A DNA stretch of 63,847 nt, the filler included, from Reticulomyxa filosa (lineage: Eukaryota; Protista; Foraminifera), in the NCBI GenBank assembly GCA_000512085.1. It is 17 parts of 17 records of this genome, joined end to end, with 100 filler letters (N's around TTAATTAATTAA, not from the genome) between each part and the next. Parts side by side here need not be neighbours in the genome. Positions count along the whole stretch, not along the records: positions 23,018 to 44,092 come from ASPP01028422.1; 16 more parts are not named here. One strand, given 5' to 3'. This document shows, in pieces, positions 23,018 to 60,379 of the stretch; positions within the stretch are counted from its first letter, which is position 1; every line of letters starts with the position of its first letter. The notes below the pieces were generated by a model. The model saw nothing but the letters and a program-made list of their open reading frames with translations. It was not told where the DNA came from and made no database searches. The translations under genes were made by a program, and so were the position numbers.

Positions 23018-23704
23018 AAACAATACAGATGGGAAAATCGACAAGAATATGCGAAATTGCTTGAAGAGTATCATTTGAATGAGTTCAACTCCCAAATCGA
23101 TGCAATTCGACAAGGGCTGGCCACCGTTGTTCCTATTGCATTTCTGCCATTATTTTCATGGCGGGAATTGGAATTAATGGTTTGTAGCGAACATGACATT
23201 GACTTGGAGTTGCTGAAAGACAACACTACGTACAAGTCTGGTGTTAGTGCTTCCGATAGGCATGTTCAATATTTCTGGAGCATTTTGCAGGAATTTTCCA
23301 CACAACAACGCCATGATTTTTTACGGTTTGTCTGGGGACAAAGTCGACTTCCTGCTCGTGGTAAGGACTTTCTTCAGAAATTCGAGATCCAAACCGCAAT
23401 TAGGGATGGTGATAATGCTTTACCCGTCAGCCGTTATGTCCCTCTTTTTTCTCCATCTGTAACATCTTTTTACATCACAATAAATGTAAATTAAACCTAT
23501 TTTCAGCTCTCGATTTTTGATAAATCAATTACTACAACAACTATTTAAAAAAAATTTGTTATAGACACATGCTTCTTTTCTCTCGAGTTACCAAGATATT
23601 CATCCAAAGAAATCATGAAAAAAAAACTATTGTATGCGATATCGAATTGCCATGCAATTGACGCAGATTTCTTGGAACGAAATGTTAATTGGGAAGAAAA
23701 TTAA
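23018..23704 (+). CDS. HECT E3 ubiquitin ligase (HERC1/2-like), C-terminal part
   Basis: [11 protein letters not shown]...[12 protein letters not shown]...FWSILQEFS...[12 protein letters not shown]...LPVS|[36 protein letters not shown]. The catalytic Cys (HTCF) is restored by intron 23433-23564. Confidence 0.95.
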
Positions 23705-25479: not shown

Positions 25480-28400
25480 ATGGCAGAAGAAGATGGAAGG
25501 AAAGAAATTAAAGATTTTTTACAAGTATTGAGAGAACACTTTAGGGAACAAGTCTTTACGTACTTGTTTGACAAGTTAGCCTGCGACGATATGGAAAGTG
25601 TTCTACATATATCGGCTGAAAGATGGAGGGAGCTATTCAAGGAAACACAATTGCCTGAAGGCCAACAGCCAAAACTATTAAAAAAATTGAACGAAAAGCG
25701 CAAAGAAAGTAGCCTGCCACCACTTGACATCAATACTGTTGGAGGAAACGCTGAGAAAGCAGAGTTAAACAATGTATAGAAAAAAAATGTCGAGTCATTT
25801 CCATTTCAAACTAAACAAAACAAAAAAAAATCAAAGTCCACTAAAATCTTCCGAAACAAATTCTGAACGCAGTGATATACTCACTGGACTAGATGCCAAA
25901 GATGACAAAGATATCAAAGAGTCCGTCCAAAAAAAAGCAGAAAATGAGAAAGAATCTGCCCCAAAAGATGTAGAAATGGAAAAACAGTCTACTCCAAAAA
26001 AAGATAAAATTAAGGACCAAGGCAATGTAGAAAACAAGAAAAACGCCATTCAAGAGGACTCTAAAAATGAAAACGAAACCATCGAAAAAGAGATTGAGTT
26101 TGTAAAAATAGTAAGTGTTGATCCGACATCAAATACGATCAGTTTTAGCTTAAAGGTGGGTTGACATAATTACGCTAATGTTTTTTAATTTGCAAATTGA
26201 AAATGGAGCACTTTTTTTGGGTATTGTTGCGAAAATACGTTTACAGCACAACTCAAACGTAATTGTATCTCGAAAAGATATACAATGGAAGTCTTTGTCA
26301 CTGAGACAAGGTGAAGAAATCAAGTGCACATATACGCTGAACGAAAAGAAAAATGTTATAGTAGAAAATATAGAGTGGCCTCCGATGTACCAAGAACAGA
26401 TCACATTTGCTGACAAAACATTTTTTGCTTTTATGAAGCCCTACACCGAAACAAAAAAAGTTTTGTTTTGCTTTATAATTGGATTTTTTATATTTACTTG
26501 TGCTCATTGTATGTTGATGTTGTGAAGATAAGAGTAATATTTCCAATTGATACCGTGTCTGGAGTGACCAAATTACGTGAAGGGGATATATTATCTTTTC
26601 GTCTCCAATTCACACCACAAAAATGGATGCCTGTTGATGTAAAAATAGTAGAAAGAGCTGCCATGTATGCATACATCTTTCTCTCCGCATATATTACTTT
26701 TTTTTACTATTGTCGTTGTTTAACTTGAGTAGTCGTAAAATCAAAGATATCCCAGCCCCTCCAGCAATTAAAGATAAAGCAACAAGCTATGACGATATAA
26801 AGAAGTGGCTCGAAAATCCATCGCAAGGTATACATGTTTGTTTTTTTTGCTTGTGTTAGTTGAGAGTTACATTAATTCGGAGCGTGCTACGTTGGTTTGC
26901 ACAGAACAACCATCGTGGGAAAAGTGGCAAAACAAAGAGTTGTTGAAAATGGGCTCAACCTTGTTGAATCTGTTACAAGAAAGTCAATATAATGATGACA
27001 ATGAAAGCAAAATCGAGCAAGTGATATGGCAAAAGACGGCTATTCAATTCGAATTGATCAAAGAAGTGATTGTAAAGTGTATTGATGAGCCATGCCAAGT
27101 GCCGGATACGTTGTTTCATGTGTTATCTTCCTCAGGACAGAGCCAAGATGCGAAAGAAGATGAAAATGCAAAAAGACAGACTCTACAAACTCAAGTGAAA
27201 AAATGAAGAAATGGTAAAGTTACGCAAGCTCGTGGAAGAATTTCATGAAATGACAGAAGAAGAAAATCGCCAGCATTTGTATCAAAAGTGTGCCGATATT
27301 GTCCTTGAAGAAGAAAGCACAGTGTGTGAGGTTCAATTGGATTTTCCCATAACTGATAGAATTGCGAGGATTTATATTTATTGTCCCGAAACCACAACGG
27401 GCAAAAAAAAGCCAATCATTTTATTCAACCAAAGTATTTTTTTTTTTTTGAGTAGTCCTCAATAGGAAAAAAAAGGAAATATAAAAAATTAACAAAAATA
27501 CAAAAAAATTTTTCAGAGAAATGGAAGGAAGCACAATTGGTAAGCGATGACTTCTTATCTTTATACGTGATTGATCTGCCAGCACTAAAATACACTATTC
27601 ACATTAAACATCGAAATCTACGTACAATCATTGATATTGACACTCAAAAGTATGCCTATTTTGTCGAAATGAAAAAGCAAGACTATTGGCAAAAGGCCCA
27701 AAGTATGTATAATTTCGTCAAGGATAGATGGGTAGAAAATAGCTCTCTATCTCTGAATAACGTTGTGGTTCGTCACGTGATAGAAAACATTGTTGATGAC
27801 AAGTCATTTCAATTTGCACAGCAAGCCTTGTGCGACATAACCAAGGAACTCCAGAATCTCTCCAAAGAACTCAAAGATTTGTTTCTAAAAATGAAAGGCC
27901 AGCTTAACAATATTGATGCAGCTATTAAATTAGTTAAAAATATATGTTGCATATATACATATATAATCTTGGTTTTGTACATTTCGCCATATAAAATTTT
28001 CTAAAAACAGATTTATCAAATTACATTTGCGAGCGAACAGCTCAAAGGACAAAGGGAGCGGCTAAATCCATTGGAATTATTTTATTTAGCGAAATGCGTA
28101 GTAGCAACACCGAAGTGCAATATAATTGAAACAATAAGAAAAGAGTTTTGGAGTGACTTAGAACATAATAAACGAGCAGAGGGCATTCAACAGTTCATGT
28201 TAATTCCTTGTTTTAATCTTTTGGCAAGTGATAATACCATGCGAATACATGAAGAACTTTTGGAATATTTCAACTTCAAACATGTCAATAAAACATCACA
28301 AATGGCCATACGGTGCATAGAAATTATCGAAACAGATCTACAAATTCGACGTAATTTCAATATCAAACCGATATTATTTTCTGAGATGCATTTGATGCAA

Positions 28401-31400
28401 ATATTGCATTCTCAAAAGGATAATATTATGTCGGAAGAAATATTGGAGTCCTTATTGTCCAAAAAAGAACTTGTGACGGTCGAAACGTGGATTAAGTTGT
28501 GCACAACTCCAGACTCCAAATTTTCTAATGTCATTTGTAATTTGTACAAGTGCCATTTTAAAAAGTTTAGTTTATTTGTGGAGAAACTTGAAGCTATTGG
28601 GGCATTGAAAAACGAGCGCCTTTGCAAACTGTTATTGAGTATAATCAATGAAAAAGATTTTCAAGATGCACTGATTCAATCCAAGCAAGATTTGATTTCT
28701 TTTATACAGAAATATGATACTAGTATTTGGCAAAATTATGAGGACGTATTGCAAACTTTATATTGTTATATTGACAAAACAGATAAAATCCATGATGTCA
28801 ATACGATAATGACTACGTTTGATATGCTTTGGAAACATTGTCCATCTGAATCGCAATCTATTGAAAGGCAAGTTAATAATATTACTCAGCGATTGCTAAA
28901 ACGACTTGTAGCCGAAGAGAAATCGATTGAATTGTGGCTGCAACTATTTACGTATCAAACACAAGGAAAAAGACAACACATTTTGAAAGAACTCTTGTTG
29001 CAAAGTTTGAATGAATGGATAGACAACAAGATGATAGGTACAAGTATTGATTCACTTCAACAACTTGCGCAGCTGTTGTTATGTCCAAACTTTTGGACTC
29101 TCCCCAATGAATATCAAACCGCATTTTTGATCGAAATTGAAAAGCAACAGGAGATACTATCTCTGAGTAGCAAAAAATGGAATGAAAAGTCTCTGCAATC
29201 GATGAAAAAACTTTTGGAACAAACATTCGTTGATTCGAAGGTGTTGGACAAAATAGTTGAAATTGTTATAGATATTCCTGTGCAAATGGACTCCGATGTG
29301 AGTAAAGGAGACATAGATAAAGATAAGAATGTAATTGAGGTAAAAGAAGAAAATAACGATGAACGAACAGAAGACAATGAAAAAAAAGAAGAAGTATTTG
29401 TAGAAGAACCGCTTGAAGGAGAAGTGTTTGCAAAAGCGCTTACAGAAGAAGTAGTCATAAAAGAAGCGCCCATAGAAGAAGCGCCCATAGGAGAAGAAAA
29501 TGATAGTGAAAAAGACCATGAAGAAACAAAAGAAAAAGAAAAAGAAAGAAAAAGTAAATGAGGATCAATCGCGGTTGTTAATACATCATTTGGAGTATTG
29601 TTTTTTGTGTATACCATGGTTGTCGTTGATCCAATGTGAATTAAAGAAAGTGCCAAGATTGAACCAGCTACAAGAATTTATAAAGACGACACTCAATACA
29701 TTGTTTGAAATGGCTGACAATAAATCAGTTGCATTTTGTGTATGTGAATTTCTTGCGTGTGATCGTAACGAGTATAACATCCAAAGCAGCTGCAGATCTT
29801 TGTCGGAATGGAAAGACGATAACATGATTCAAAGCAAAGTCAATGCATTATTAGCTATGTTAACAAAGTACAAAAAATTTGTGCATCTGAAACAGTTATT
29901 CATAGCAGTGTTGACCAGTTATATGACATTTGATGATCTTTCTACACAATTACAAGAATTCAGTCACTTTTGTAATAATTGTAATTCAGAGTCATTTCCG
30001 AAAGCGAGCCAAAAATATCAGGATGAACAAAAAATATTTCAAAAAATGGAAGAACCAATGAGACAGTTAGCGAATCTGAAGGACAGTTGTGCATTTAAAA
30101 AGCTGTGGAATCTGTATCGGAAAGAAATGAAAGAACAAAAAAAATTGACATTCGAAACGAGTATGGACGAACTTTATAACCAAGTAAACAAAAGATGGAG
30201 GGAGTTGAGACAAACAATGGAAAAAGAATCATCATCTATGGAAGATTTGAAATGGTTTGAAGCAAGTGAGTTAAGTTTGGAATTACAGTTTTTATTTCCA
30301 AACTGGCCCCCGGAAAGAAGAGAGTCTGTGGCAAAGAGTATCGACGAAAAACGTGAAAAGATTAAACGATTAGAAAAAATGATAGTTCCCTGGGCAAAGC
30401 TGAAAGAAGCCACAGAAACTTTGAAAAAATATCATAAATCAAACCATACAATAAAAAACGATAATAATTGGAATCGTTTTGTCAAATCATTGGAGAACAG
30501 CTCTAAGGTACTTAAAGAACAAGAACCATCGATTCAGCGCTTGTCTCAATGTTATGACGAGTGTGCAAGCTGTTTTGGAAATGAAGCTTTGCAATGTGTG
30601 GAATTGTTGGACTTGATTGTGAAATACGAAAAGACACTGATTGAACAATTGGCAACCAGCGACAACTTTGCAAACAAAGAGCATTTTGCAAACACCTTGG
30701 AGACATTAGACAATTGCAAGGACATTCGATTCCAGCAATTAGTAAGCGCACTGCGTGCAGTCAATGGAAATATTCAGGAATACATTTGGGATGCCAATTT
30801 ACAAGAGACAAGTCAAGTCGCAAGAGCGATTTTAGCAATTCATAGACGCGACAATGAATTCACTATCAGATTTAAAAAGTGCTGCGATGAGGATCTGGGT
30901 CGTATCTCTTTTCTCGTTGAAGAAGCAGGTCAAATGCAGGCTGTACAGAGCTTTAGTTTGTTAGAAAAAGCGCAGAAAATTGGCCAATGGAATTTTGCCG
31001 GATGTGATCAAGTATTACAAGTTAATTCGAATGTCATTGACAGCAATGAAGAGAAAAAACAGAGAAATGAATGGCTCGTCTTGCAAATTGGAGCAGATAA
31101 ACTCAATTATGATCAAATTGAACAAGCAATTGATCGTGTCTTGCTAGGATTTTCCAAAGAAAAGCAGTTAAAAGGAGTGGAGTCACTGATTAAGCAGTTT
31201 GGGACATGCAAAGATATTGAAACATTACGAGTGATGTTTTGGAGGAAAGGTGGTCGCCAAGCGACAGATAAATTGTACTTGTCCGTAAAAGAATCATTGG
31301 AAGTGTTTAAAAATCTACAAAGTGAATGGAAACAAAGATTAGAGGAGTGGCAAAGCGAATGCGTGAAATTGAGAGCTGAGTATCCAATATTGAATTACTT

Positions 31401-34400
31401 TACATTCAATGAAGTTCGTTTTCTTTCCAAGAAATTAAATGATATTGTAAGCTGTGATCCAAATCACCGAGAGATATTGTGTTCCAAGTTTATTTTACCG
31501 TTTTTACAACGTATTGACTCCCATCTCTCTAGCGCCTTGCCCTATGTGGAAAAATGGAAATTTGAAGCTGTGGAAGAGAATAAGATATTAATCCAGTTTG
31601 GGACTGTGTTTTCCGAAATTTGGATCAATTTGAAGAATCATAGTGATGTATATCGCAATACATCTTCATATGAGCTTGAATATAGTAAACCCAATTTAAT
31701 AATTCAGAATGCCAATACAATGCTCAGTGTTTTAGATTTGTTCAAATGTGTTGGAATCATTCCTCGTATCGAACATATTTTGATATGCAAAGAAAACACG
31801 ACGGAAGAGGAAATTGAATGTTTATTGTTTCGGGCAATCACTTCAGCCAACCGAATCCACGAGGAACGAGTAAACTTGCACTCTCCATTGTATTGTTTAA
31901 TGTGGCCAGAAATGTTGCCACTTGAAACATTAGAGCGAGTAACCAAATTGTTTCATACTCTGCTGCTGAGTGGAGAAGCATTGGATAAACTTAAAAAAAT
32001 TCCGTATCTATTGGTTGTTATGTCGACCTCGCCCAATAGCATGCTGTCTCAAAAATTGAACCGTTTTCGCTTGTCTCAACGTATTGGCATGAACGACCAG
32101 ACTCGAAATCTGTTAATTCAGCAATTGTATGGTAAGGATTTGGAAACATTTGCTTCACAAATCCCTCAGCCAATCGCAATAGCAACAACAAGCCATTTGT
32201 GCAATTGTACGTTTCTGATGAAATTGGCATGGGAAAGAGCTTCAAAATTGAACAAGATATTGCATCAATTCGAGAGGTCAATTCAAAGATACAAGCCGTG
32301 CGTGTTGCATTCAACAGCAGTGATATAGATTGGAAAAGTATAATGGAAGGATTTTGGAGATACCATCCTTGTACAAATGAAGAGCAAGTACAAGAGAATC
32401 TAATTGACATTGAAAAAAAAATGTACTAAACTAAATTATCAGGCCGATAACCTTGTCATATATCATTTGGATATTTCCTCTTGTGTTTTGACTTCGATGA
32501 ATACGTTTTTATTTGAGCTTCTTTTTTTGCAACATATCAACACGACATTGAATGTATGGGAATCACAATGTTTCCATGTCAATGCAAACATGGCCTTTTT
32601 AATTGAACTGCCTTTTAAATTGAACGGCATCAAAAATGACTACCAAGAAATATTGCATACGATATTCTCTTTGCCAAGTCTTCCCATTGTTAAAGTTTCC
32701 AAAGACACCAACCCATATGTATTTGGCCCAGAAGCACAGTTTGCTATCAAATGGATGAAGGAATTCTTTGACGGAAACTTAAAGTTTGCAAAAAATATAT
32801 ATGTTTATCACATGAATGAATAAACAAATGAAACAATAGGTATGGAGACCCCAATATGCAACAAATTAGTGATTTGGAGTCCACGGAAATGATTCAAATC
32901 ATGCAAATAAATTGTCCAAAAATGATGCAAGCTTCTCACTTGCATCAAACTGCTTTCTACAAATATCTGCATAACCAATTTTCTCCCTTGTCTACTTCTG
33001 TTTTTTTACGAAACGAAGATATAGAAAGCCAGCGATGGCCTATTCGATTTAAAAACGAAGTTACCAAGTCTGTTATTGAAATGAGCACGGATCTTTTCAG
33101 TCGATTCAACCAAAGAGGGCGCGTATACAGCAAAAAGAGTCTCGAAGAGAGTACAGGAAAGGATAAGTTTTACCTGTGCAAAAAATGGAAGCGCGCCAAC
33201 CATTTTTTATACTTGGTCAACCAAGATGATGTAGGTTTGTCAAATTTGTTGAATTTTTTTAAATGAAAAGCATATACGTAAATTTGTGTATGTACACTAG
33301 TTTTTTACTCAATCCTTTTGCAAAAGGCACGATTTCCATGCTCATCAACGACACAGCATCTATACCTCCACCTTGTTTGCAAGCACTTCGAGATTTGGAT
33401 TTTACACTCCTGAGCTGGAACGAAGAAATGAAACTTCGAAATGATGCGATTGGAACCGAATGGAAGGTCTTTCAATTTTTCTGTTTGTTTGTTATTTTAA
33501 ATAACAACTGAGGGGCTATATATATGTACAAATATATGTTTATATCACTTACATCTTAAAAAAAATGAATGCAACAAAAAAAAAAAAATAAATAAAGAAA
33601 AAAACGAAAGATATGCCGAAGATAGCTGCAGAAATTGAAGAAAAAGAAAAAAGAATCGAGTTATTGTTTCGCGTTGTTGGTACAAAAGAAACATTAAAAG
33701 CAAACATCAAAATGAAGCTCTGGGGAAAAGATTTCAAGCCAAGAGAACAAACTGAAACAAAGGAACAAATTGATGCAAACAAGCAAACTAAAACAAAAGA
33801 ACTGGAGGGAGAGTTCCAACATTATGTATTAACTTATGACAATATATTGAAAATGATTGCAATATATTTGAGGATACAATCCAATACGCCGATTATTTTA
33901 ATGGGAGAAACGGGCTGTGGAAAGACATCACTGATCAAGTATTTGGCCAAAGTAGCCAATGTTTCTTTGCAAGCTATTGATGTCCATGGCGGATTTGGAA
34001 GACATGATCTTCGGAACATTGTCAAAGCATGCGTAAATAAATGGGAGGAGGACGGAAAAAGGATTGCAATGGAAGAGGAAGAGGAAAGGAAAAAGAAAAT
34101 GATTGAGGAAGAAAAGAAAGAGAATGAGGAAAGAAATAGAAAAAAGAGGGAAGAAGAAGAGAACATGAATGAAAACGATAAGAAAAAAATGGAAAAAATG
34201 AAGAAAAATATTGAAGAAATGAAAAAGAGACAGAATGAGAGAGATCGGGAACAATGGATATTTTTAGATGAAATCAATACGTCTCCAGATATTGGTTGGT
34301 TGAACGAATTAGTGTGTAACCATACGTTGGATGGAGTGAAAATACCAGAAGGCATTAAAGTCATTGCTGCATGCAATCCATATCGAAAACGTAAATTGAG

Positions 34401-37400
34401 TGACGAAGAAGATGAATTGCTTGCAAACGATGCATTGAGCAAATACGTATACCGAGTACATCCATTGTGTGAAACCATGAAGGAGTATGTATGGTCATTT
34501 GGAAGATTGTCCAAGCCAGATGAAAAACAATATATTGAAGAAATGGTGAAACAAGTGAAACGTGAGCTTCCATCTACACTACATATAGAGTTTGAAGCGT
34601 GGAAAGATGAAATTTCAAAAAAGATTGCGACAGCTCAAAATTTTTTACTCGAAAATTTGAAAGATAAAGCCATTGTTTCATTACGAGATGTGTCAAGATG
34701 TTTGAAAATATTTGTATGGTTGATGAAACAGTGTTTTATATTGAATAATCATAACTCTATTCCTTGGATTTCTCGGAGTTTGAACATTGCCATTGGGTTA
34801 TGTTATTACTTTCGATTAAATATTGATGAAAGACAAAAATTGAGTAAAAATTTTTCCACAGATAATTTATTTTCCAAATCCTTGGAGCAAGAAGTGGACA
34901 GGTTGTGCAAATCGTTTTTAATTCCTGGAGGTGTTGCATTAAATCAAGGATTAAAAGAAAACTTGTTCATTTTATTCGTGTCGATTATCACAACCACTCC
35001 AATTGTTTTGGTGGGCAAACCAGGCACCTCAAAGACTCTATCTTTTCAAATTGTTCGTGACAACCTTTCTCACAATAAAACAGAGTTTGGAAAAAAATTA
35101 AGTCAAAATAATGTACCTTTCGCCGTTAAACCAATTCATACTATTGCATTCCAATGCACTCGTGATAGCAAACCACAGGGGATTAAAGAGCGATGGGATC
35201 AAGCAATGCGTCACAGTGAGAATAATCAAATCAAGCCAATATTGTTACTCGATGAAATTGGATTGGCTGAGCATTCAAAGCATTCCCCATTAAAGATATT
35301 ACATCAACTTTTGGAAGATCCAAAGATATCTTTTGTTGGGATTTCCAATTGGCCTTTAGATGCCGCGAAGATGAATCGAGTGGTTATGCATCAAATACCA
35401 TCAATGACACCACAAGAGTTAAAAAATACTGGCTTGGAAATGATAAGACACTATCGAGAGAATTTAAGGGTACATGGGGACGAGCTAAAAAACGAATGGT
35501 TAGAAGAGGAAATCGAAAATATTGCCAAAGTTTATGACCGAGTAATCAACACACCCAAAGCATTTGAACCAAAGAATAAAAAAAACTTTTTTGGAGCCCG
35601 TGACTTCTATTCTCTAATCCGATATCAACTCCAAAGTCCTTCTTACCGTGTATCGTTTGAAGGATTTATGAGAAACTTTGGAGGCATTCCAAGAGATGAC
35701 CTGCTCAAAAATTTAGGAGACATTTTCCACAATGTGTTAGGAATTAGCAAAGAAGATATTCTCAAAAAAATGAGTAAATTCACGCCAATGGATTGTGTCC
35801 AACAAAATCTTTTGGACATTCGAACGAATAGATCCAAATTACTCGGAGACAATTATATTGTAAGCCGTCATTGTATGGTTATCAGTGAATCAGAGCATTC
35901 TTGGCAAGTTTTGTTGGAAATGGAATCTTAAGATATGACGACGTGTTTTTATTTAAAAGCAGTTTTGCACATGACCAAAGTTCGAGCATTTCGGATTACG
36001 AACATTTGAACAAAGTCATTAACTGTATGGATACTGGAAAGAGAGTCATTTTGTACAAGTTGGATTCAATTTATGAAAGTTTATATGATATGCTTAACCA
36101 AAGATATCAAAAAAAGCCCTCTGGTAAAAACAGTTTAAAAAATGCCTTTTTCTCATCTTTTAATCATACTATACGCAGAGAACAAAAATATAAGATAAAA
36201 AATAAATAGGAAATGTATATTGCCGAGTTGCTCTGGGAAGTGAGAGTAAAGATTGTTATGTGAAAGATGAATTCAAATGCATAGTGATTGTGCACAAGGA
36301 CACAGCATACGCACCGGAAATGCCAGTTGCATTTTTAAACCGCTTTGAGAAACAGTTGATATCCTATCGCACATCACTACCCTCTGAAACGGAGTCGTGG
36401 ATATCAAAAATAGAAGAGCGGTTAACTCAAGCGTTTAAATTTTCCAAACGATTAGGGAAATTGTTTTGTGGATTCAATAACGATACCATACCTTCGGCAT
36501 TGTCTAGCATTTTAGTACAAAGAAAAGAAGAAGAGTTAAACAATATTGAACTTGATGAAACAACTATAAATGCAGTTATGAATTTATTTAAACCTTTGTG
36601 CTGTCCTGAGATCATCATCGAAATTGCCATTGATCAAAAGGAAAAATTTGACTACAAAAAAGTTGGGCAGGAAGAATTCCCTTCCTTTAGAAAGATTATT
36701 GACTTGCAACTTATGAAGTCGAACAAACAAATGGCAATAATACTTACTGGAGATTTTGAGTGTAATTTACCAGAAGAGTGGAATAACGCAACAAAAAAAG
36801 TAGAGTCCTTCAAAAAATCGAGTGACTTTGAACAAGTCATTCATCATTTCTTCAGTCCAAACAACACAAGCCAAGATCTATTGATTTTGCAGTACGTGCA
36901 CGACTCGAAAAATTTCGGCCACTTTATGCACATCAAACATACCCTGGAACATGCACATCATCGCTACTATTGTTACAAACAAGAAGAGGAAGAAAAAAAA
37001 GAAACAGAACAGAGATTGGTTGTTTTGCTCGTGCATATTAAACCACCAATTTTCAAAAACCCTTTCCCACTAATTTTCTCGAGAAAATGGAACTTTACAT
37101 ATGTTGATAACTTAAGTTCGATCGGGCTCACACAATTGAAAACGCTGCTTTCACAAACCATGCCAGATGTGCTTGAAAGTGATACATGTAATAATCGCTT
37201 AAATGACGCGATTCGGCGAGCATTTGCACGACTCCAGTTCCCTGTCCATAAAAATGAAGGTGGTGATATACAAAAACTATCTATTTTATTTAACGAATCG
37301 AATGAAACTAAGAAATGCCGAGAAGAAATCGTTTTAAAATTAAAGCAAATATTTCAAGAAAAAGGCGTAGTATCCGAACCCATTGTATGCATTTTAAATA

Positions 37401-40400
37401 AAGACGAAATCAAAAATCCCGGCAACGTGGATACGTTATCACTAGGCTGCTCTTTTTTTAAGAGATATGAAAATATTATCGGCAGATTGTTGGTCATGGC
37501 TTGTACGAATATTTTGTTGGTGTTTTATGAAAATTGTTATTTCCAAGTTAATTCACTTGTATTTTAATGCAATCATAAGTATAACGAAAATTTGTACAAT
37601 GTACTTTAAAAAAAGGTGTTTTTTGATGCCGTTAAAAAAAATGATGACCATTTGGCGCAATTGTTTGTGGAAGTCATAAAAGATGAATCAATACTATCAA
37701 TTCCTCGCTTAAGAGAGGTAATGCAAAGATTAATGGGCGTTGAACCAGATCTACATGCGGTCAGTGTCCAATACAAGGCCATGTTCCCATGGAGCCACAT
37801 ATTTCACAATTGGTGCCACTCCAAGTTGGTCAATATTGTTGCCCACAATGCCACAACCGAAAAATTCAATACAATTAACAATGAAAAGGAGAACAAAAAT
37901 GAAAATAAAGAAGAAAATGGATATGAATATGACCAGGAAAAAGAAACTAAGATACAATTAGAAAGCCACTGCAAAATAATCCGAACTTTCAAGTTATTGA
38001 GAGCATCAATGAGTGGAAGTAGAAAAGCGTTCAATCTTTTGAATCGATGCAATGCCGAACATTGTCGATTGTATTTTAAGGATATCATTGCAGCTAAATA
38101 CAATTTGAATGAACACGACAAAGCTGAAGTCATTACAGACGTTATGTTCTCTATGATTTCTATGTACGATTGCAATGTGTCCATAGCGGTGATTGAATCT
38201 ATTTTATATTTTTTGCCAGATTTTTTTGCTAAGTATGTAAACTTATTGAAGCTCTGCGAAGACAATAGTATCGTTTTGGAATTGCATACGTTATTGGACA
38301 ATAAGAGTGAGAGTTCCAGATTAAGTGATTCCATTTGCTTGTTGCTGAAATATTTTATTTCCTTTTCATCTGGTTCGATCTTTGCTTTGTTTTTTCCTCA
38401 TAAAGGCTCTTCGTAATCTTTACTCTTGTTTTTGAATACGTGTCAACTTTTTTTTTTGCAGAGAATAATTGGCATGACGTTATCAGAAATTTGAAAGCAG
38501 TAGAAAATGCAATTCCAATAGTTCTACAATTTGCAACAGATTGTTATGGCAATAGCAAAGAATATAAGAAAATATTATCCATGTGTCGTCGAGCACAAAT
38601 CCAAATCCTTGGAGTGAAACATTTTGGGAAGCAAGTGATTGACCAAACAGATCTGAATAACGTGTTGTCTCGTGCCATGTCGTTCAGCCAACCGTCGTCC
38701 GATAATGACAAGACCACTATACCTAAAATTTTGGCTTGTGTGCTCAAGGAAGGAAATCTTGCTATGAACAAACGTCCTCATTATATTCGGGATATGTTAG
38801 CGATAGTGAGACACATTGAAAAACTTGACACTCCAGACAAACAAGAAATATATCGTTCTGTACTACTCGAGTTTTTTGATAATTCACAAGACTTGGTGTC
38901 AGATGCAAAAAATGAAAGCAACCAGATCCGTTTGCAAATTCTTGAAGAGTTGGTTCAAAATCAATGGGAAAATAAGACATTTGAGTTAGCTTCTCATGAA
39001 GCTGTGTTATTAAATCGCGTATTGGAACGTATTTATATAGATGTGCCAAATCTCAAGTACAATGGCCCAAACCAAACTATTGACGATGTGTCAAATTTGA
39101 AGGCAAAGTTGTTTCAATGCATTAATTCCATTCTGTCGATTACTAAAACACTTATAATATCACAAATGAAGGACAATCAAGAGTTAAATGTGGTAATGTG
39201 GCAAGCGTCTCAACTGTTAACGCATTTTAACCAAACAAACGAACGTTACCAACATAGTTTGCATATATGGTTTTTGAAGGAATTTTATGTTGCCAAGGGC
39301 ATAAATTGGACAAAAACGTTCTTTACAAACGAGGCAATATGTGCAAAGTATCCAGTATTTTCTCATCCACAAATGAGTGATGTATTTTCTGTATTGAAAT
39401 ATCAATCGCCTGATATCCTTCCTGCAGATCTGTTTATTAATATTTACGGAGATAAGTACGTCAAATTTAGAAATGAACTTTTGCAGGGAATTAAATCGGG
39501 TGATATAGATCCACAGTATAATGGAAATAAAAGTGATTTCATTTTATTGTTAGCTGCTGCTCTCTCTTTGCCTAATCTCTGTGATACTTTCAGCCCAAAT
39601 TTTGAAAGTAAGAGACTCTACAGTTTTTTCTCTCTTCCAGTAGTATACGTTGCAAATTTTTGGCGCACACACTACAAAAATAGAAGTAAGAGATTATTTG
39701 ATGCGGTGCAACGTTTTAAAATCCGACGTTGAACAGAATTTTGTTAAAGTGTTACTTAGTGAGAAACTCCCTTCAACTGCCTCTAGTTTGAGGTTGACCT
39801 GGAACACTGCTTCTGACAGTTTCATTCCAAGATTGTGTTTCCATTTTCTGGGAGTACTCCAAATTATGAACAGTTACGTTCCTTTTCTTTTTGAAACGAT
39901 TTGCACAATAATCTATCAATATTTCTCCCCTCTCCTCAAAAAAAAGAAAACCCATTCCGAGCATTGATTATAAATCCCAAAATATATGTAAATGGTCATC
40001 TTCCAACAATGCCAGAAAATTTGTTGATAAGCATGATTCGTGTGATGAAAAGCTCAGGACAAGACGGAGATAGTTTTACGGTTCGCTATTGTCCAAACAT
40101 GCATCCGTTCATCATCAGCAAATGTGGACATCCAACAGAGAAGGTAATCTGTGCAATGGATGGATGCGGCCAGGAAATTGGCAACACAACTCATAGAAAA
40201 GCAAGTACTGGATTGAAGCAATTAGAAATACCCAAAGGATATGTCTTAGATGGATCAGATGAAGAGTTATCAATAGGTGATTCATTTTGGAGGTATGAAG
40301 AAATGATAGAAGTAAGGAAAATCAATGAAGTGGCCTGTACGTTGATGCGCTTGTTAATACACTTGTCACTATTGATCAGAAATGCGGCCGTTGTAGGGGG

Positions 40401-42374
40401 ATGCAAGCAACTCCAAGAATTGTTGCACAAAAAAGATGCAACAGAAGTGACCAAGTTTTTGCAGAAACAAGCAATTGGATATTTTCGATTGTTAGGAAAA
40501 ATCACTAGCCTAAACGATGAACTTTTATCTGTGGCATTGCACCAAATATTGGATGGCTTGCCACAAACATTCAATGAGTGGTATCCAAATGGATTAAATG
40601 GAACAGATCTTACCACCACATATGAATTTGAAAAGAAATTTAATAGGGAGTACAATGGATTTTTTGGACAAATCCAAAGATTCAATGAAGTGAACAGTCG
40701 TAATAAAATAACTGTGAACGAAGACAAGGCTCTGAAAATGATCTCTGAAATTGAGGAAATAAGACAAGTTGATGAACTCTATCAAAAATATATTCCACAT
40801 TTATTTTTGACCATCCATAACGTAACATTTGATGACTTAGCTCAAAGGTTTAAAACAGAACCTTCACTGCAAAGTAAATACCCACTACTGTATTACCTGA
40901 TGAGCGCCAAAGATGAAATTTGGTGTGTGAGATATTTGCCTGTTATTGGGCAATGGATGAAACACGTATATTTTCACTATTCAAAACGAATTACACAACA
41001 AGGATGCCAAAAAAAGACTATTTCTCAAGCGCTTGAAGAGTGGAAGCAAAATGGATATGGAAGTGAAGTGGAGTCCTACCAAAAATTATGGAGTGGCTTC
41101 AAAACCTGTTGGAACACATTGGCAAATCAAAAAGTGAACAATGGCTGTAAATCATTTGTTATTCCAAAATTACATGACGACAATACAACTAGTTTGGAGT
41201 TTTCCACTGCACGAAATAATGAAAATGGATTGATTATTGTAAAAATCATTGAACTGTTACAAGATACACACAATGCATTTTTAGAACGTGTATTGCTGGG
41301 GCCTGAAAAGTATGCAGATAATGAAGAAAAATATGGAAGAGATAACGAAGAGAAATATGATATAAAGAATGGTGACAATAAACAGGTACAAGAGATTATG
41401 GGCGAGAATAAGTCTCTGTTTCACATTCACGAAAATGATGTCATATGTTTGGACAAAGATCAAGTGACCGAAATTATTCGCCAGTGGAGCCTTCCCTCAT
41501 TAGAATATGGAGCCATTAATCAAACTCGAAACAACGTTTTGGATTTAAGTGCCATTGAAAATGAAATTTTTTATCGATTTATTAAAAACCGCCAAATCTT
41601 GGAAATTAGTATCCCTTCCCTTCAGTTTTCCAATCAATTAAACATTAAAAATTGTGTGGAAATTATCGAGGAAAACAACAAAGAGCTTAAAAAAGAGCCA
41701 AAAGATCAACCGTTATTGAAGAATGTTGTTTCTTCGTTGAAATCACAAAGTGAAATGCAAAGGGCTTTGGAAATATTGAATGAAGTCATTGTCTTTGTTT
41801 CTCAAAATATCAAGATCATTAACTTGTTAAGTCGCAAACAAATAAAATTGCTCTTATTTCTTAATGTTCAATGCTTTTTATACATAGAGATAATCGCTTC
41901 GTGGAATTGCTTGAACAAATGTCGTTTGATGAGAAAAATTGCAAACTGTTTATGGTGAATTCGGAAGAACAAAAAGATTTCATATTGTGCAGGCATATGT
42001 GTAATTTATGGAGACTTTTAAACAATGCCGTGCAATTAGAGTTTGTTAATCAAAGTACAATTGACAATTATGTTTTGGACATTTACAAAGTCCCCTTGAC
42101 AGAATCATTGAAACAAGAACTTGAAGTAATGGTAAAAAAGACACCTTTGGGAACAATAAAGGAAATTTTAGACGCTTGGAGAGAGGTTGTGCAAAGAGAA
42201 GGAGAAAACATGAGAGATTTGGACAAGAAAGAACCTTTCAGGAGCTGGTTGGATAATATCGTATTTTTTGACAACGAGTTGGAATTATTTCCAAAAGAAT
42301 CACTTACTTGGGAGTACTGTGCTGCTGGTTATGCCTTTCTCCACGAGCTATTCAAACGCACCTCAGGCAATTGA
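25480..42374 (+). CDS. Giant RNF213/mysterin-like AAA+ ATPase-E3 ligase with RZ finger (~5,000+ aa, many short introns)
   Basis: RNF213-type motifs in the expected order: SDEIGMGKSF, YHLDIS, YVLTYDNILKM, IILMGETGCGKT, VHGG, FLDEINT, IAACNPYR, YVYRVHPL, VSLRDVSR, LKENLF, LVGKPGTSKTLS, LLDEIGLAEHSKHSPLKILHQLLE, FVGISNWPLDAAKMNR, FFGARDFYSLI, LYDMLNQRY, YCRVALGS, FLNRFEKQ. RZ finger CPNMHPFIISKCGHPTEKVICAMDGCGQEIGNTTH at 40090-40194. ORF breaks coincide with GT..AG introns or homopolymer indels. Joining the 5'-most exons to the rest is inferred. Confidence 0.9.
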
Positions 42375-43362
42375 CATGTTATACTTTTGTTCAAGTAATT
42401 TTGTTCATTCCGCTTTTGTGGATAAAATGAGATTAGTTTTGTTAATAAGATTGATAAATTTTTTAATTCATCACGTTTTTTCTCAATGTATCGTTCATAT
42501 GTACGAACATATCCAAACTTATTCCATTTTTCTTATTCATTACTTAAAAGTATTTGTGCTTCATACTATCAGACTTCTCAAAAGAGTTTGAGATCCTTCA
42601 AGCCATAAAAAGTGAAGGCATAAATCGTCGAATGTATTGTTTATTTAAAAAGTTCTCATTTCGCTATCTTTTAATTGTAAAGGAAGTTGAGTTTTTGAAG
42701 CTGCATTTAGTGGCTTTGGTCGTACCTGTGGTAATATAAAAATATTAACAGAAACAATGCATTTTAAGGCAAAAGTATAAATAATTTAGCGAAAGTGATT
42801 GCAACGGCAATTAAGTTATTTGTTTTTGATTTTTTTCTAAATGATACATCCCATCTCTTTGACTTGCACAAAATGTAACACGAAAATGTTGCTCTATGAG
42901 CGGTTTTTCAATAAGAAACAAGTTAATTAAATCAAAGAATAAAATGAAAAAGACAACAAAACAAGAAGAAACGAGAGAAAGTGATAAGTTGGTAGAAAAA
43001 TTTTGGAAAAAAGGGATTTCAAGATGCACTTGAGCCTTGTCCTACAAAAGGCTAATTAGGGAAAATACTTATAAAGTAGTTTGATAGTGTTCTCACTTTT
43101 TAAATTACTCCAGATTAGTTGTTTTATAAAAAATTTGAAAACGTCCAAAAATTTTTACCATAAATTACTTTTAAATGAATAGCCGATGGTGTGAAAAAAG
43201 TATTGCTCTGTTCAAAAATGATATCACTTTGCCAAAGATGTGTTTTATTTAAGTTGTTTTGAATTTTTAATAGTTATCTATATCTTGAAAAAAAATTTTT
43301 CAGTATTAATAATGACGTATGCTGAAGATTTTAATTTAACGGCAAACCAAGTCTATCAAATG

Positions 43363-44050
43363 CTATTTTTTTTGTAAATTTTTATGGAAAAACTGAATGA
43401 GCCCTCTTTTGCCGTTATGCCTCCAATGTTCGTCTGTTTTGTCCAATTGAACAGCCGTTTCTTCAGGTACTCCAATGACAGCATCCTAACCAATTCATTA
43501 AAACAAATTTTTTGGAGTGTACAAGTAAAGAGATGGATAATAAACATAGCAAGACAAACCGATTTCATTGTCCTCAATAAGACAAAGCTGGTAGGAAAAT
43601 AATCGACAACATCTTTTAAAGGAGTAGATGGCTTCCATTTTCGGCACGAAACAACCTTAATTAGCATTTGATGATAAGATAGTTTTTGAAGGAGAAAAAT
43701 GAATAGATATATACACATATATATGTTATATAAGATGATGATAAAAGCAAACTCTTCGATAGTTGGCATCGCCTTTAATAAAGGTCAAAGCATCCTTTTG
43801 AAAGAGTTGATAGCAGAGAAGGCCAGTTTCGCAAGTAGTCATTTGATTGAACATGAGCGCAGTGTTCCAGAAATGTGACTCGACAACCTCAATCAAATGA
43901 GCACTCAAATAATGGCTAATTCGGTCATAAAACTCTTTCAGCTCCGAATGGCGGGAGGTTTGAATAAACAAATGACCGACATGAAGATCTACATCTTCCC
44001 TTGTCACATCTGAAACATAGGTTGGATACAACTTCACATGCAAGTATATC
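43363..44050 (-). CDS. ARMT1-like (DUF89) damage-control phosphatase, 3' part
   Basis: HVKLYPTYVSDVT, HFWNT, FIKGDANYRR, LLRTMKS|DAVIGV and HWRHNGKRGLIQF match the DUF89 motifs (FVSD, KGDxNYR, LRTLKS, WxxxGxxGxIQF). Confidence 0.88.
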
Positions 44051-45017
44051 TGTTATTATTATTATTATTATTAATTTTCATTTTTTTTTTTTNNNNNNNN
44101 NNNNNNNNNNNNNNNNNNNNNNNNNNNNNNNNNNNNTTAATTAATTAANNNNNNNNNNNNNNNNNNNNNNNNNNNNNNNNNNNNNNNNNNNNATCGAAAG
44201 GGCATACTAATTCTGATGTCATATTCACAAATAATGTGGAAAACAAAGTAAAGATGATATAATGAATAGCAAGTGCGTGGTTCAAAAGCTTTTGTTACTG
44301 ATTCGGCAAAATGTGAATAGTACATTGATATATCATTGTATGAAAAGGAAATACTATTGATTAAATGTTATATACAATAATAGTATTTATATATATTAAA
44401 TATTAAGTATGTAAATATATATTGTATGAACATTGCATATAAAAAAAATCATTTTTTGATTTATGACAAAAAAACACAAAGTGAGTCAATTGAACTATAA
44501 TATAAAACTTAAGTGACAAAGCAACTCCAGTTTCATGTAATGAGCTTATATTGAATTGTATTCATCTTAGAAGAATTTTGATTAAAGATTCAGATTCCCA
44601 ACGATCTCTAGTATATATAAATAAAAAAATCGTAATTGAATTTTATTGACTCTATGATGTCGAAAATGATATGTAAATTGCCAACAAAGATTTACTTTTT
44701 TGTTCGTTGAATTTTTTCCACTTGATTTATTACTTTCTTTATCTTCAGCAAAGCAAAAATATAAGACTTTACCAAGATAATTTGTTTTGTCTTAAAACAA
44801 GAGAAAATGCTGTCGTATACAAGAATTTACACTGATAGAAGACAAAAACGTTAAGTTTAAATGTGCACCAGCAAATGATCTGGATTAGACTATTCTGTGA
44901 CAAAGGTCAATGCAATGATCAATGCGATCTCGCTTGTTTCGACCGCTTTGTCATATCGAAAGTCGAGTTGCCATCAGTTCCCTTGTGAATGCAGTCATTA
45001 AGAGTTAAAATATCAGC

Positions 45018-56519: not shown

Positions 56520-58538
56520 TTAAAAAATACAGAGTAAAAAAGTTTAGAGTGTGCAAATGACAGTTAAAAAAACGTACCGTCATCAAAGTTTTTTTGGTTC
56601 CATCTGTGAACAGAAGAGTTATTTATGTTACCATTGAAATGGTGATGTTTATTTTCTTTTCTTGGAATATTGTGCATTGATGGTAAGTCACCACTGTTGA
56701 TATTGGCAATGTTATTATTGCCATTACTATTGCGAGCGCAACTTGCCATAGGAAGTGGTGGACAATGTTTATGTGCAAATGATGAGGCATTAGTGTTACA
56801 AGTTTGCAATAAAGTTTCGTTATTGCTATTATTGTTGTTTTCAGTCACATTTGACACATCGTTGTTGTCATCATGTGCAATGACAGTCTTGTCTTTGTCA
56901 CGCTCATATTTACGTTTGTATCTTGCATTTTGCTTATCTACAATCACCATCAATTACACAATCCTTACTTCCAATTGTTTTAAAAAATACACGTATACAT
57001 TTTTTTTTTTTTTTTCAAAACGGTGAATATTTCTTGACTCTTTTGCAGCAGAAAAAATGTATTGTTTTCGTTTATCCTTCAATCCAAATCCAATGATTTC
57101 ATTGCCACCATTATTAATATTCTTGTCAACATTGAGAATAATCGGAGGTGTCATAGGAATTTTCGATGATGTGAAATCTTTTCGTGAATTCTATATTGAC
57201 CGGAGAAAAACATCAATTTATTGCTAATGGTGCAAGAGTGGCTCTCCATCGTACTTTGCGTAAAAAAAAAAAAAGTAAATAAATAAAATAAAATAAAATA
57301 AAAAATAAACTCTAACTTGTGGATGATCATCATTTGGATGTTTGAATGTGGAGTTGATGTCACCTTCATAAGAATGAGAGTGGTAAGGATGATGGTTTAT
57401 GAATGTACTCAAATGTTGAGAGATAGAGTCGGAGTGGTTTGAATAATGAGTTGTGCAAGGATTATCTTGGAAACATTTAAAGTAAGGATGTTGATGTGCT
57501 TGCTCAATAGTCAATCTTTGTGTTTCATCCATTTCAAGCAATCCTTTGAGTAAGCTTAATAATGAACTATGAAATGTTTTATGCCCTTGATATCGACGAG
57601 ACAGTGTCTGTGGGTTTGCAATTTCTGGAAGTGTTGCGCCCAGAAATCTTGGATTTTTGCTAAATAATTCTTTTTGTTGTTCTGTTAATGGACCCAATAC
57701 TTTACGAATAAGAAATCTTTTTTTTGTTTATACATTCTTATTTAATAATCTTTTTAAAAGTAAATATACTTAACAATTGATCCAAATCAGACTCTCCTGG
57801 AAATAAAGGCTGACTATCAATGAGCTCAGCAACAATACAACCAATAGCCCAAATATCAATAGGTTTATTGTAATTTTTAAAACCTAATAATAATTCTGGT
57901 GCTCGATACCATCTTGTAGCAACATAATCAGTTAATGATTGCTGCTGATGATTATTATTGTTATTGCCATTATTGTCATCATTATCATTATTGTCTATTA
58001 TTCTGGCAAAACCAAAGTCACACAATTTTAACAACGGTTGAGGAGACACATTAATAAGTAAGTTTTCTGGTTTGATATCTCGATGAATAATATTGAAATG
58101 ATGACAATATTTTACAGCTTGTATTAATTGATAACTATAAAGTTTTAAAAGTTCTGATTCTAAGCCGTTTTTTGTTTTTTCAAGCAATTCTAACATATTC
58201 CCTTGCATTAATTCAAATACCAAATATAATATTTTTTTGAGACTGTATATTTTATTTATTTCATTTATGTTTATTTTGCTTTTTTTTTTTAAATACCGAA
58301 ATGCATCTTTAAATGCAATAATATTTTCATGTTTCAACATTCTTAATATTTTAATTTCTCTCGTAATACATTTTTTAATATGTTCATCTTCTTCTGTATC
58401 TTTAAATTTTTTTATTGCAATATTTTCTTTTGTTTCCTTATTTTGACATTTAAGTACAATTCCATAAGCTCCTTCTCCTATTTTTGTTTCTATTATATAG
58501 ATACAGGATTTACTTCTTATTTCATTTTCTGAATTCAT
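56381..58538 (-). CDS. CDKL5-like (CDKL family) protein kinase, multi-exon, 3' end truncated
   Basis: [12 protein letters not shown]...[82 protein letters not shown], and [25 protein letters not shown] (a CDKL5/LF5-type segment). Confidence 0.9.
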
Positions 58539-60379
58539 TTTTTAAAAAAAAGCGCAACAGCAAAGAAAAAATGTAGCGTCATTCTCTTTTCATTATGAGT
58601 TTTGTTGTTCTCGGACTGAATTATAGTCATTTAACCTTGCCAAAAAGATTTTTCTAATGTACTGTCCGATTTTTTTTTAATAAACAAATGTGGATGGTAT
58701 TATTATGATGTGGCGCATGAATTCTAGGCCGGAAAAGAACGAATATTTGTCTATCTGATTTTTGTTTGAGCAATAACATCATTCGTTTTGTTTTCAAAAG
58801 CATAACTAAAAATTGTAACTATTGAAAGAGCTTGTGTTATTTTGCTAGTACACTTTTTTTCTCAATCAAAAAAAATATTTCCATTCTTTTGCAATTAGAT
58901 CACAAATTATTTATTTCAAATATAAAATGAATAAAAAATAAAATTATGACGAATTGAAGAGTTCTCTAAAAAGGGTCTAGTTCCAGATTTTTTATTTTTC
59001 GATGTTACATCATTTGTTTTAATTCTTGTTTTCAAAGTTTACAAGGATAAAATTTATCTTCCCGAATAGCTGAGAAAATTCCCTGTATGAAAGTAGTTGA
59101 AAGAGTTCAAAGAGCTTTTATGTCGTTTTTTTTTAATAAATATGTTCGATCTATATTATAAATACGTTCAAAACTAATTGAAAATTTATTTGTCCTATTG
59201 ACTAAAAAAAGGCAATGACATTTGACATTATAATTATGTCATGCTGAAATATTTTCATCTTAAAATGAATAATTTTTTGTAGTCGAAAAGTTTCCTTTAT
59301 TAACTACGAGAATAACTTTCTGGAACAACAAAGAGAAATTGTGGAAAAAAAAAATAACAAAAACGAAGAAGATGAGATGACTAATTGATATTATATCATT
59401 CAAATACATTTAGAAATTTTTGTGTTATTCAAACTCTCCCACCAACTTGAAGATAAAAAAATTGCAATATTCTTTTTTCACGCATACTTACGCATATTTT
59501 CATCTACTTCTGAATCTGGATCAGATTCGACTTCAATCATTAAATCAAGTTTAGATTTATCGGATTCATAACTAGATTCACTTTCATCTAAATCAGAATC
59601 AGATAAATTTAAATATTTTTTCTTTTTCCACACTTTCATATTTCATAATCCAAATATGTTTATATTCAGTTGGTCTTGTCCACCAAATGATAATAAAATT
59701 TTGATAATATTTGGATTTATATTGAATACGTTTATAAATAACACATTGCCCAAATAAGAATTGATTAAAATTNNNNNNNNNNNNNNNNNNNNNNNNNNNN
59801 NNNNNNNNNNNNNNNNTTAATTAATTAANNNNNNNNNNNNNNNNNNNNNNNNNNNNNNNNNNNNNNNNNNNNTTTTTTTTTTTTTCTTAAAATTGTTTTT
59901 GATGATGCAAAATGGAAGATATTGAGCAAAGGAGTTTTAAAATATTTTTGAAATGGAAAATGGATTTTAACAATGCATGTGATTTTCTTTTCAATGAAAA
60001 TTAAAAATTTTTTTATAAAGAACTTATTCAAAACTGAGCACGCACGTACGTTTTAAGTTTTTTTTAATATCTGACTTTGAAACATAAATTTCTTAAATTA
60101 CATAAATGATATGTCTTCATGAATTAATTTGAATACGTTTGTATATTTCTTTTTCAAATTATTTTATCGTAAAAGACATTTGATGCACAAAGTGTGGTAA
60201 CACAACTCTTGGAATGCGACAGTTTTGTCATTTAAATATGAAATAACTTTAGAATATCTAATGAAATTTGTATCTTTTTACAAAATGTGTACGTCCATTG
60301 TGAAGAGGATTTTTGTAACATTAATACAATTAAATATATAATATTTTATCAAATAAATACAAATAAAATTTCATTCATT

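What the first reader, a model, noticed from the sequence alone, without database searches (positions are those of the whole stretch)
39990..40260. Intact RZ finger but no visible RING: a RING-less mysterin outside animals
Seen: C-x3-H-x6-C-x8-C-x4-C-x8-H (CPNMHPFIISKCGHPTEKVICAMDGCGQEIGNTTH). Established: the human RNF213 RZ finger (CPNGHPCSVGECGRPMEQSICIDCHAPIGGIDH, C-x3-H-x6-C-x8-C-x2-C-x8-H) supports RING-independent ubiquitylation, including of bacterial LPS, through a reactive Cys. All six positions are conserved here, including the Cys equivalent to the catalytic one. I find no C3HC4-type RING pattern in ORFs 36260-39732, where RNF213 carries it. Inference: the AAA+/RZ transthiolation machine is ancient, the RING is a later or dispensable addition, and a bacterivorous protist may use it against intracellular microbes.
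Basis: partly seen in the sequence, partly recalled or inferred. Interest (0 to 1): 0.78.

Follow-up and report, generated by a model that had tools for sequence, protein, structure and literature searches.

The report
RING-less RNF213-like ligase gene, foraminiferan
A giant gene of the amoeboid protist Reticulomyxa filosa encodes a relative of the human immune ubiquitin ligase RNF213 that keeps the ATPase motifs and all six residues of the RZ finger but has nothing at the site where animal copies carry the RING finger and a brown-algal relative carries a U-box, so it likely tags its still unknown target through the RZ cysteine alone.

Summary
Observation confirmed. The RZ finger is at 40090-40194 (Pfam 38.7 bits, cut-off 27) with all four zinc ligands, the nucleophile-position Cys and the general-base His. 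It lies in a ~17-kb RNF213-like gene of Reticulomyxa filosa (100% match to RFI_32211) with intact AAA3/AAA4 Walker motifs. The RING is truly absent: the spliced 2001-aa ligase half has no CxxC, its introns are 62-89 nt, and the two helices that flank the animal RING are joined by a short linker (38749-38766). This state is common: 28 of 40 sampled RZ-bearing relatives have an empty site, among them other protists, a fungus, a scallop and one Hydra form; the scan noted it before in other genomes. New here: the site is a slot. Animals fill it with a RING, Ectocarpus and two unnamed relatives with a U-box, one with a C8 finger; unrooted trees favour separate gains. 'Ancient' and 'dispensable' are supported, 'later addition' is likely, anti-bacterial use is untested. 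One homology-confirmed frame break in the AAA region (sequencing error or pseudogene) is unresolved; no reads were listed.

The parts
25480..42374 (+). RNF213-like gene (inferred full extent; about 5,000 aa if 25480-29559 belongs to it). 29560-42374 splices to 3,997 aa with 11 GT-AG introns and one frame break
   Evidence: lies wholly on one contig, 23018-44092. 3' half is 99% identical to database model RFI_32211, P0001. The link of 25480-29559 to the rest is inferred, not shown
25480..25773 (+). Predicted SAM-like helical domain at the presumed N-terminus (weak)
   Evidence: single-sequence model pLDDT 74; best structural match EphA5 SAM Z 5.9, rmsd 2.7, 66 aligned, many SAM domains in the list but tied with recombinase domains; Foldseek E>1
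29560..32131 (+). Stalk/linker-region exon
   Evidence: 23-27% identical to Nonionella P0009 residues 1135-2062
33904..33927 (+). AAA3 Walker A, intact
34258..34278 (+). AAA3 Walker B, intact (DE)
35014..35037 (+). AAA4 Walker A, intact
35242..35262 (+). AAA4 Walker B, intact (DE)
35915..35921 (+). One-base frame break in conserved AAA sequence, in a short base run; no intron fits
   Evidence: the Nonionella homologue runs straight across it
35922..42374 (+). Ligase half: AAA5/6 end, E3 module, RZ, CTD; 2,001 aa, no internal stop; introns 36133-36209, 37547-37615, 38373-38461, 39608-39683, 39873-39946, 41826-41887
38749..38766 (+). Empty RING slot: short linker between the two helices that flank the RING in animal RNF213
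   Evidence: profile alignment to 22 animal-type proteins, colinear with the RING-less scallop form; anchor-to-anchor span 60 aa against 133-149 aa when filled; model of exon 38464-39606 is all helix, helices 85-96 and 101-119
40000..40050 (+). LPxMPExLL motif and helix before the RZ finger (predicted ubiquitin-binding helix)
   Evidence: kept against human RNF213; role from 10.1101/2025.10.14.682297, passages; lost with the catalytic pair in pseudo-RZ relatives
40090..40194 (+). RZ finger: zinc ligands at 40090, 40102, 40150, 40165; nucleophile-position Cys 40123-40125; general-base-position His 40192-40194
   Evidence: residue roles from PMC11549300, passages
41888..42374 (+). Last exon, C-terminal domain (E2-docking domain in mouse); E2-contact Trp not kept
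   Evidence: alignment of C-termini; roles from PMC12075652, passages

Best explanation
The gene encodes an RNF213-family protein with intact AAA3/AAA4 ATPase motifs, a complete RZ finger and an empty RING site, and it likely works as an ATP-gated ubiquitin ligase that passes ubiquitin through the RZ cysteine to a target that is probably, but untested, an intracellular invader. Shown: family membership, the motifs, the absence of RING and U-box, several paralogues of the same build. Inferred from mammalian RNF213: ATP binds AAA3/AAA4, an E2~ubiquitin docks on the C-terminal domain, ubiquitin moves to the Cys at 40123 and, with the His at 40192 as base, on to the substrate. It is the natural form of the RING-deletion mutant, which keeps auto- and LPS-ubiquitylation in mammals. 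Inferred from unrooted trees: the empty site is the old state, and RING-fold modules were added to this loop at least twice (RING in one animal clade, U-box in a clade holding Ectocarpus) and lost again in places. The target is the weakest step (defence about 55%).
For: AAA exon hits human RNF213 at E 3.6e-67, RZ exon at E 4.5e-9. Four Walker motifs intact. RZ above Pfam cut-off with all six residues. No CxxC in 2,001 aa; slot span 60 aa. 4 of 4 other Reticulomyxa proteins found keep the full RZ, none has a RING hit; P0002 and P0004 start shortly before the slot. In 7 more distant relatives (one named Reticulomyxa, P0160) the nucleophile Cys, the last His and the LPxMP helix are lost together while the zinc ligands stay, so their joint retention here looks selected. 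RING-independence and residue roles: PMC7311170, PMC11549300, PMC12075652, 10.1101/2021.05.10.443411, passages. RING-bearing proteins form one clade (SH-aLRT 100 on AAA, 99 on E3 core) whose named rows are all animals; U-box rows sit in a separate clade nested among empty-slot proteins; forcing the two together is rejected at p-AU 0.022.
Against: No activity or expression data. One frame break in the AAA region and two apparent ones at about 27200 and 29551 would, if real, cut the ligase half from the ATPase. The mouse E2-contact Trp5097 is not kept here or in the non-vertebrate rows, so E2 docking differs or is weaker. No CBM20 detected in the N-terminal ORFs. Relatives in a brown alga, a diatom cluster and a mycorrhizal fungus show the family is not tied to bacterivory. 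Trees are quick LG+G4, unrooted, with long-branch warnings; the AU group was named after seeing the tree; 2 of 40 slot calls were unclear. The window protein's nearest AAA relatives (Nonionella P0009, P0011) have no RZ at all, so catalytic ends swap easily in this lineage.
Confidence: 0.7

Rival explanations
1. Same enzyme, but its job is housekeeping or stress-related (lipid droplets, organelle or protein quality control, ATP sensing), not defence.
For: Mammalian RNF213 also acts on lipid droplets and senses ATP/AMP (passages). No CBM20 detected; the presumed N-terminus is SAM-like. Family present in non-phagotrophs.
Against: Many divergent paralogues, pseudo-RZ copies and swapped catalytic tails in foraminifera are the pattern usually seen in defence gene families (general knowledge). 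CBM20 point mutants did not affect recruitment in human cells, so its absence says little.
Confidence: 0.35
2. The ancestral protein already had a RING-fold domain at this site; animals kept it as a RING, the Ectocarpus clade as a U-box, and Reticulomyxa and most protists lost it.
For: Three kinds of RING-sized insert sit at the same site. Loss is easy: RING-less Hydra and scallop forms and empty-slot rows inside the U-box clade. In ZNFX1 an RZ pairs with a U-box/RING-like domain (passages). Trees are unrooted.
Against: 28 of 40 rows are empty and spread across the tree; filled clades are not sisters (p-AU 0.022, post hoc). The U-boxes are canonical (33-52 bits), as expected for capture from the U-box family rather than decay of this RING (inference).
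Confidence: 0.25
3. This copy is a young pseudogene; the motifs are intact only because it broke recently, and paralogues do the work.
For: A homology-confirmed frame break at 35915-35921 and two apparent ones upstream; several paralogues exist; the database model starts after the break (P0001).
Against: No in-frame stop in 3,997 codons and 11 intact GT-AG introns; all three breaks lie in short base runs, as in pyrosequencing errors (the sequencing method is recalled, not checked). Two other apparent breaks turned out to be introns.
Confidence: 0.15

Closest known systems
Mammalian RNF213 / mysterin (PDB 6TAX, 7OIK, 8S24, 9G08, 9JWG)
   Same: Size, order of modules, active AAA3/AAA4 motifs, E3-back/shell/core colinear by profile alignment, RZ finger with six conserved residues and the preceding helix.
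   Different: No RING at the insertion site; no CBM20 detected, SAM-like head predicted instead; CTD E2-contact Trp not kept; C-x4-C instead of C-x2-C in RZ; about 20-30% identity.
RNF213 delta-RING mutants (PMC7311170, PMC11549300; passages)
   Same: AAA + RZ + CTD without RING; in mammals this form keeps auto-ubiquitylation and bacterial ubiquitylation.
   Different: Natural, not engineered; activity of the Reticulomyxa protein is untested.
ZNFX1 (10.1101/2025.10.14.682297; passages)
   Same: RZ finger with the same catalytic pair; pairs RZ with a U-box/RING-like domain, as U-box-bearing RNF213 relatives appear to.
   Different: Helicase scaffold, not AAA; the window protein has no second ligase domain.
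Unstudied database relatives: Diphylleia P0012, Epipyxis P0023, Cymbomonas P0110, Acaulospora P0210, Polykrikos P0288, Picozoa P0316, Mizuhopecten P0229, Hydra P0148
   Same: RZ finger without RING.
   Different: Some have variant RZ ligands; Ectocarpus P0306 has a U-box in the slot; Nonionella P0009 has an RCR/RBR-like tail and no RZ.

Membership tests
RNF213/mysterin family | Dynein-like AAA core homologous to RNF213 | tested here: met
   E 3.6e-67 to human RNF213; spliced model aligns over AAA1-AAA6 region to P0008
RNF213/mysterin family | Walker A and B intact in AAA3 and AAA4 | tested here: met
RNF213/mysterin family | E3 scaffold (back, shell, core) and CTD after the AAA core | tested here: met
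   hhalign probability 99.95, 624 columns, global mode; local mode 98.7 over 242 columns with a smaller profile; phmmer to human 4500-4935
RNF213/mysterin family | RZ finger: four zinc ligands, nucleophile Cys, general-base His | tested here: met
Canonical animal RNF213 (RING-bearing clade) | RING finger between the last two helices of E3-back | tested here: not met
   the protein also falls outside that clade
Canonical animal RNF213 (RING-bearing clade) | N-terminal CBM20 | tested here: inconclusive
   no Pfam hit at E<=0.1 in N-terminal ORFs, but these are exon fragments and the human CBM20 was found by structure
Canonical animal RNF213 (RING-bearing clade) | CTD residues that bind UBE2L3 (mouse F5093, W5097, Y5106, E5108) | tested here: inconclusive
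   Trp not kept in the alignment; low identity makes the register uncertain
RZ-type transthiolating E3 ligases | ATP-dependent ubiquitin transfer through the RZ Cys | not testable with these tools
   needs biochemistry
RNF213 as LPS ligase | Ubiquitylation of lipid A / coating of cytosolic bacteria | not testable with these tools
   needs biochemistry and cell assays

The most novel reading that the evidence does not exclude
RNF213 began as a RING-less AAA+/RZ ligase in early eukaryotes, preserved in Reticulomyxa, and one loop of its E3-back is a plug-in slot into which E2-binding RING-fold modules were captured independently (a RING in animals, a U-box in a brown-algal clade, perhaps a C8 finger), while foraminifera also swapped the whole catalytic end for an RCR/RBR-like one. 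The human RING, which has no known substrate, would then be a convergently added helper that feeds E2~Ub to the RZ cysteine, as the Miz domain does in ZNFX1, on top of a pan-eukaryotic cytosolic defence ligase.
Probability: 0.4. Interest if true: 0.75.

Novelty: new variant of a known kind. Interest (0 to 1): 0.5.

Why it matters
What the RING of RNF213 does is open: it has no bona fide substrate and can be deleted without loss of pathogen ubiquitylation, yet patient variants fall in it (PMC11549300, passages). Natural forms with an empty slot, a U-box or a RING give ready-made comparisons: if the U-box-bearing ligase half needs its U-box for full RZ charging and the empty form does not, the slot is a helper site. 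The finding also moves the family from 'likely conserved across vertebrates' (PMC3963067, passage) to most eukaryote groups sampled. As a single gene it is ordinary for its family: the RING-less build is common and the protein is already labelled RZ-type in UniRef.

Tried and rejected
No sequencing run was listed for 32000-41900: no evidence either way on expression or the frame break. The model of exon 38464-39606 (pLDDT 61, pTM 0.42, 6 sequences) found no RNF213 match by Foldseek or VIA-align; only its secondary structure was used. A first profile alignment with a RING-bearing master laid the helix at 38560-38630 over the RING, suggesting a decayed RING (confidence 0-2); rejected because a deeper profile with a RING-less master, the multiple alignment and the predicted helices put that stretch on the helix before the slot. 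'Hydra shows animals began RING-less' was rejected: other Hydra forms carry a degenerate RING at the site. Apparent frameshifts at about 32170 and 32415 were rejected: 38- and 55-nt GT-AG introns restore near gap-free alignment to Nonionella (one search's fourth intron was wrong and was corrected). The segment 26190-26459 looked OB-fold-like by eye; PDB and Atlas searches gave nothing usable. A per-protein hhalign survey timed out and was replaced by one multiple alignment. Paper searches for non-animal or RING-less RNF213 listed no paper on it; two searches were weak because the listed rows held no RNF213. Otten et al. 2021 is not held and its alignments may include non-animal sequences; the R. 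filosa genome paper was not listed. No supplements were read.

Full report
Source and layout. The window is a string of short contigs joined by N linkers; the gene lies wholly on the contig 23018-44092. The RZ exon matches database protein P0001, named RFI_32211 of Reticulomyxa filosa, at 100%; the species is a foraminiferan, Rhizaria.

The observation. The RZ motif is at 40090-40194. Pfam PF20173 scores 38.7 bits against a cut-off of 27; the pattern occurs once in six frames and 0 times in 300 shuffles. It aligns position for position with the RZ of solved human RNF213, where C4505, H4509, C4525 and C4528 bind the metal and C4516 and H4537 are the predicted nucleophile and base (PMC11549300, passages); the nucleophile was mapped in mouse as Cys4462 (10.1101/2021.05.10.443411, passages). 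The LPxMPExLL motif before the finger is kept too; the helix there is predicted to bind ubiquitin (10.1101/2025.10.14.682297, passages).

The gene. The AAA exon hits human RNF213 at E 3.6e-67, and all four Walker motifs of AAA3 and AAA4 are intact. From 29560 to the stop at 42374 the gene splices with 11 GT-AG introns into 3,997 aa without an internal stop, apart from one frame break at 35915-35921 that a Nonionella homologue crosses without a gap. Two more apparent breaks, near 27200 and 29551, lie in A runs in the N-terminal 4 kb, which has no alignable homologue. The presumed N-terminus folds weakly like a SAM domain (Z 5.9, rmsd 2.7, 66 aligned); no CBM20 was detected. No reads were listed, so error and pseudogene cannot be told apart; the lack of stops and the position in base runs favour error.

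The RING is absent. The 2,001-aa ligase half has no CxxC, and its six introns are 62-89 nt. Four ligase exons have no RING or U-box family at E<=1, while the primate control does. Because Pfam missed degenerate RINGs in Hydra and Astyanax, I tested the site itself. In mouse the RING is inserted between the last two helices of E3-back (PMC7311170, passages). A profile of the Reticulomyxa proteins aligns to a profile of 22 animal-type proteins over 624 columns (probability 99.95, global mode) and is colinear with the RING-less scallop form; the two flanking helices are joined at 38749-38766. The predicted model of that exon is all helix with a four-residue linker there (pLDDT 61, no fold match).

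How common is this? Of 79 RZ-bearing proteins with at least 650 residues before the finger, 21 score 15 bits or more with my RING profile (built from 18 of them); the window scores -2.2. For the slot measurement I dropped 25 near-duplicates and 15 of 18 animal-type rows (13 RING-bearing, one partial, one RING-less), and added the window, leaving 40. The span between two anchors is bimodal: 42-96 aa in 28 rows (window 60), 133-149 aa in 10, and 2 unclear. Named empty-slot proteins come from Reticulomyxa, Diphylleia, Cymbomonas, Acaulospora, Polykrikos, Picozoa, an Odontella cluster, Mizuhopecten and Hydra. The sample comes from searches seeded with Reticulomyxa and Hydra, the word-index searches stopped at 5,000 aa, and most rows are unnamed, so these are not family frequencies. 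Atlas clusters agree as a lead only: top clusters carry RZ without RING families.

The site is a slot. Of the 10 filled rows, 6 hold a RING (5 of C3HC4 type or close, one degenerate in Hydra), 3 a canonical U-box (Ectocarpus P0306 33.4 bits; unnamed P0187 and P0226 52 bits; cut-off 21.4) and one (unnamed P0186) a C8 finger that neither Pfam nor my RING profile recognises. Hydra has forms with, without and with a part of the cassette between identical flanks. On both an AAA tree (33 rows; 2 of 35 left out as a gappy row and a third Nonionella paralogue) and an E3-core tree (44 rows), RING-bearing proteins form one clade (SH-aLRT 100, 99) whose named rows are all animals, with RING-less Hydra and scallop forms inside it; the U-box and C8 rows form a separate clade nested among empty-slot proteins. 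Holding the two clades together is rejected at p-AU 0.022, but the group was named after seeing the tree, the model was LG+G4 quick, long-branch warnings were raised and there is no root. At least 6 changes between filled and empty are needed. I read this as an old empty state with at least two gains and several losses (about 70%), against an ancestral RING fold often lost (about 25%).

Mechanism. By the conserved parts, the protein would work like mammalian RNF213 without its RING: ATP binding at AAA3/AAA4 activates, the CTD docks E2~Ub, the RZ Cys accepts ubiquitin (PMC12075652, passages); RING deletion leaves auto- and bacterial ubiquitylation intact. An internal control supports selection on the catalytic set: 7 more distant relatives, one a named Reticulomyxa protein, lose the Cys, the last His and the LPxMP helix together but keep the zinc ligands. 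Against a simple copy of the mammalian mechanism, the E2-contact Trp of the mouse CTD is not kept in any non-vertebrate row. The target is unknown. Defence is my preferred reading because of the mammalian role and the paralogue turnover in foraminifera, but relatives in a brown alga, a diatom cluster and a mycorrhizal fungus show that bacterivory is not required (their feeding modes are recalled).

Novelty. Nine searches of the paper library listed no paper on non-animal or naturally RING-less RNF213; Otten et al. 2021 is not held and no supplements were read, so this is weak. The protein is already labelled RZ-type in UniRef, and the scan's earlier notes report RING-less relatives in at least 7 other genomes. 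A word search of those notes for the U-box slot found none, but the index dropped the letter U. Verdict: observation confirmed; a real but common variant of a known family; the U-box at the RING site is the part a specialist would find new.

Noticed in passing
P0306 residues 3690-3749 (Ectocarpus fasciculatus); P0202, P0187, P0226: A canonical U-box sits exactly where animal RNF213 has its RING; P0306 also has a UBA domain at 1327-1360.
   Followed up: yes
P0009 residues 4495-4706, P0010, P0011 (Nonionella stella): The window protein's nearest AAA relatives have no RZ; P0009 ends in a MYCBP2 RCR-like region (E 1e-21) followed by an ARIH1-like IBR/RING2 domain, i.e. another cysteine-type ligase end on an RNF213 core.
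   Followed up: partly
P0013, P0014, P0040, P0081, P0133 and many ENA proteins: A second animal RNF213-like clade (corals, lancelets, sea star) has no RING hit and only a reduced zinc ribbon at the RZ site, without the catalytic Cys; it branches with fungal and protist proteins, not with canonical RNF213.
   Followed up: partly
P0147-P0151, P0006, P0007 (Hydra vulgaris): Database forms carry a full, partial or no degenerate RING cassette between identical flanks; exon skipping or paralogue differences not resolved.
   Followed up: partly
P0156, P0160, P0162-P0164, P0166, P0173: Pseudo-RZ relatives (P0160 is Reticulomyxa RFI_07773) keep zinc ligands but lack the nucleophile Cys, last His and preceding helix.
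   Followed up: partly
P0186 residues about 2850-2900 (unnamed JGI record): A C8 finger, unrecognised by Pfam, fills the RING slot in a protein of the U-box clade.
   Followed up: partly
P0179, P0190; P0284: PH and DEP domains inserted in the E3 module of two unnamed RZ-bearing relatives; a Pfam CBM20 at the N-terminus of EukProt protein P0284.
   Followed up: no
window 23018-23494 (+): A HECT-domain fragment (Pfam 122 bits) begins the same contig, about 2 kb upstream of the gene.
   Followed up: no
window 43356-44052 (-): ARMT1-like phosphatase fragment downstream on the opposite strand, cut by the contig end.
   Followed up: no
window 26190-26700 (+): Two beta-rich segments that look OB-fold-like by eye in the presumed N-terminus; no database support.
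   Followed up: partly
window 32132-32169: A 38-nt GT-AG intron, shorter than the gene's other introns (55-131 nt), supported by alignment to Nonionella.
   Followed up: yes
window 6503-8660, 10652-11113, 18401-19456, 57227-58541, 61368-62213: Other contigs hold a Polo-like kinase, a PHD finger, an MFS transporter, a protein kinase and a Kelch protein; unrelated to the finding.
   Followed up: no
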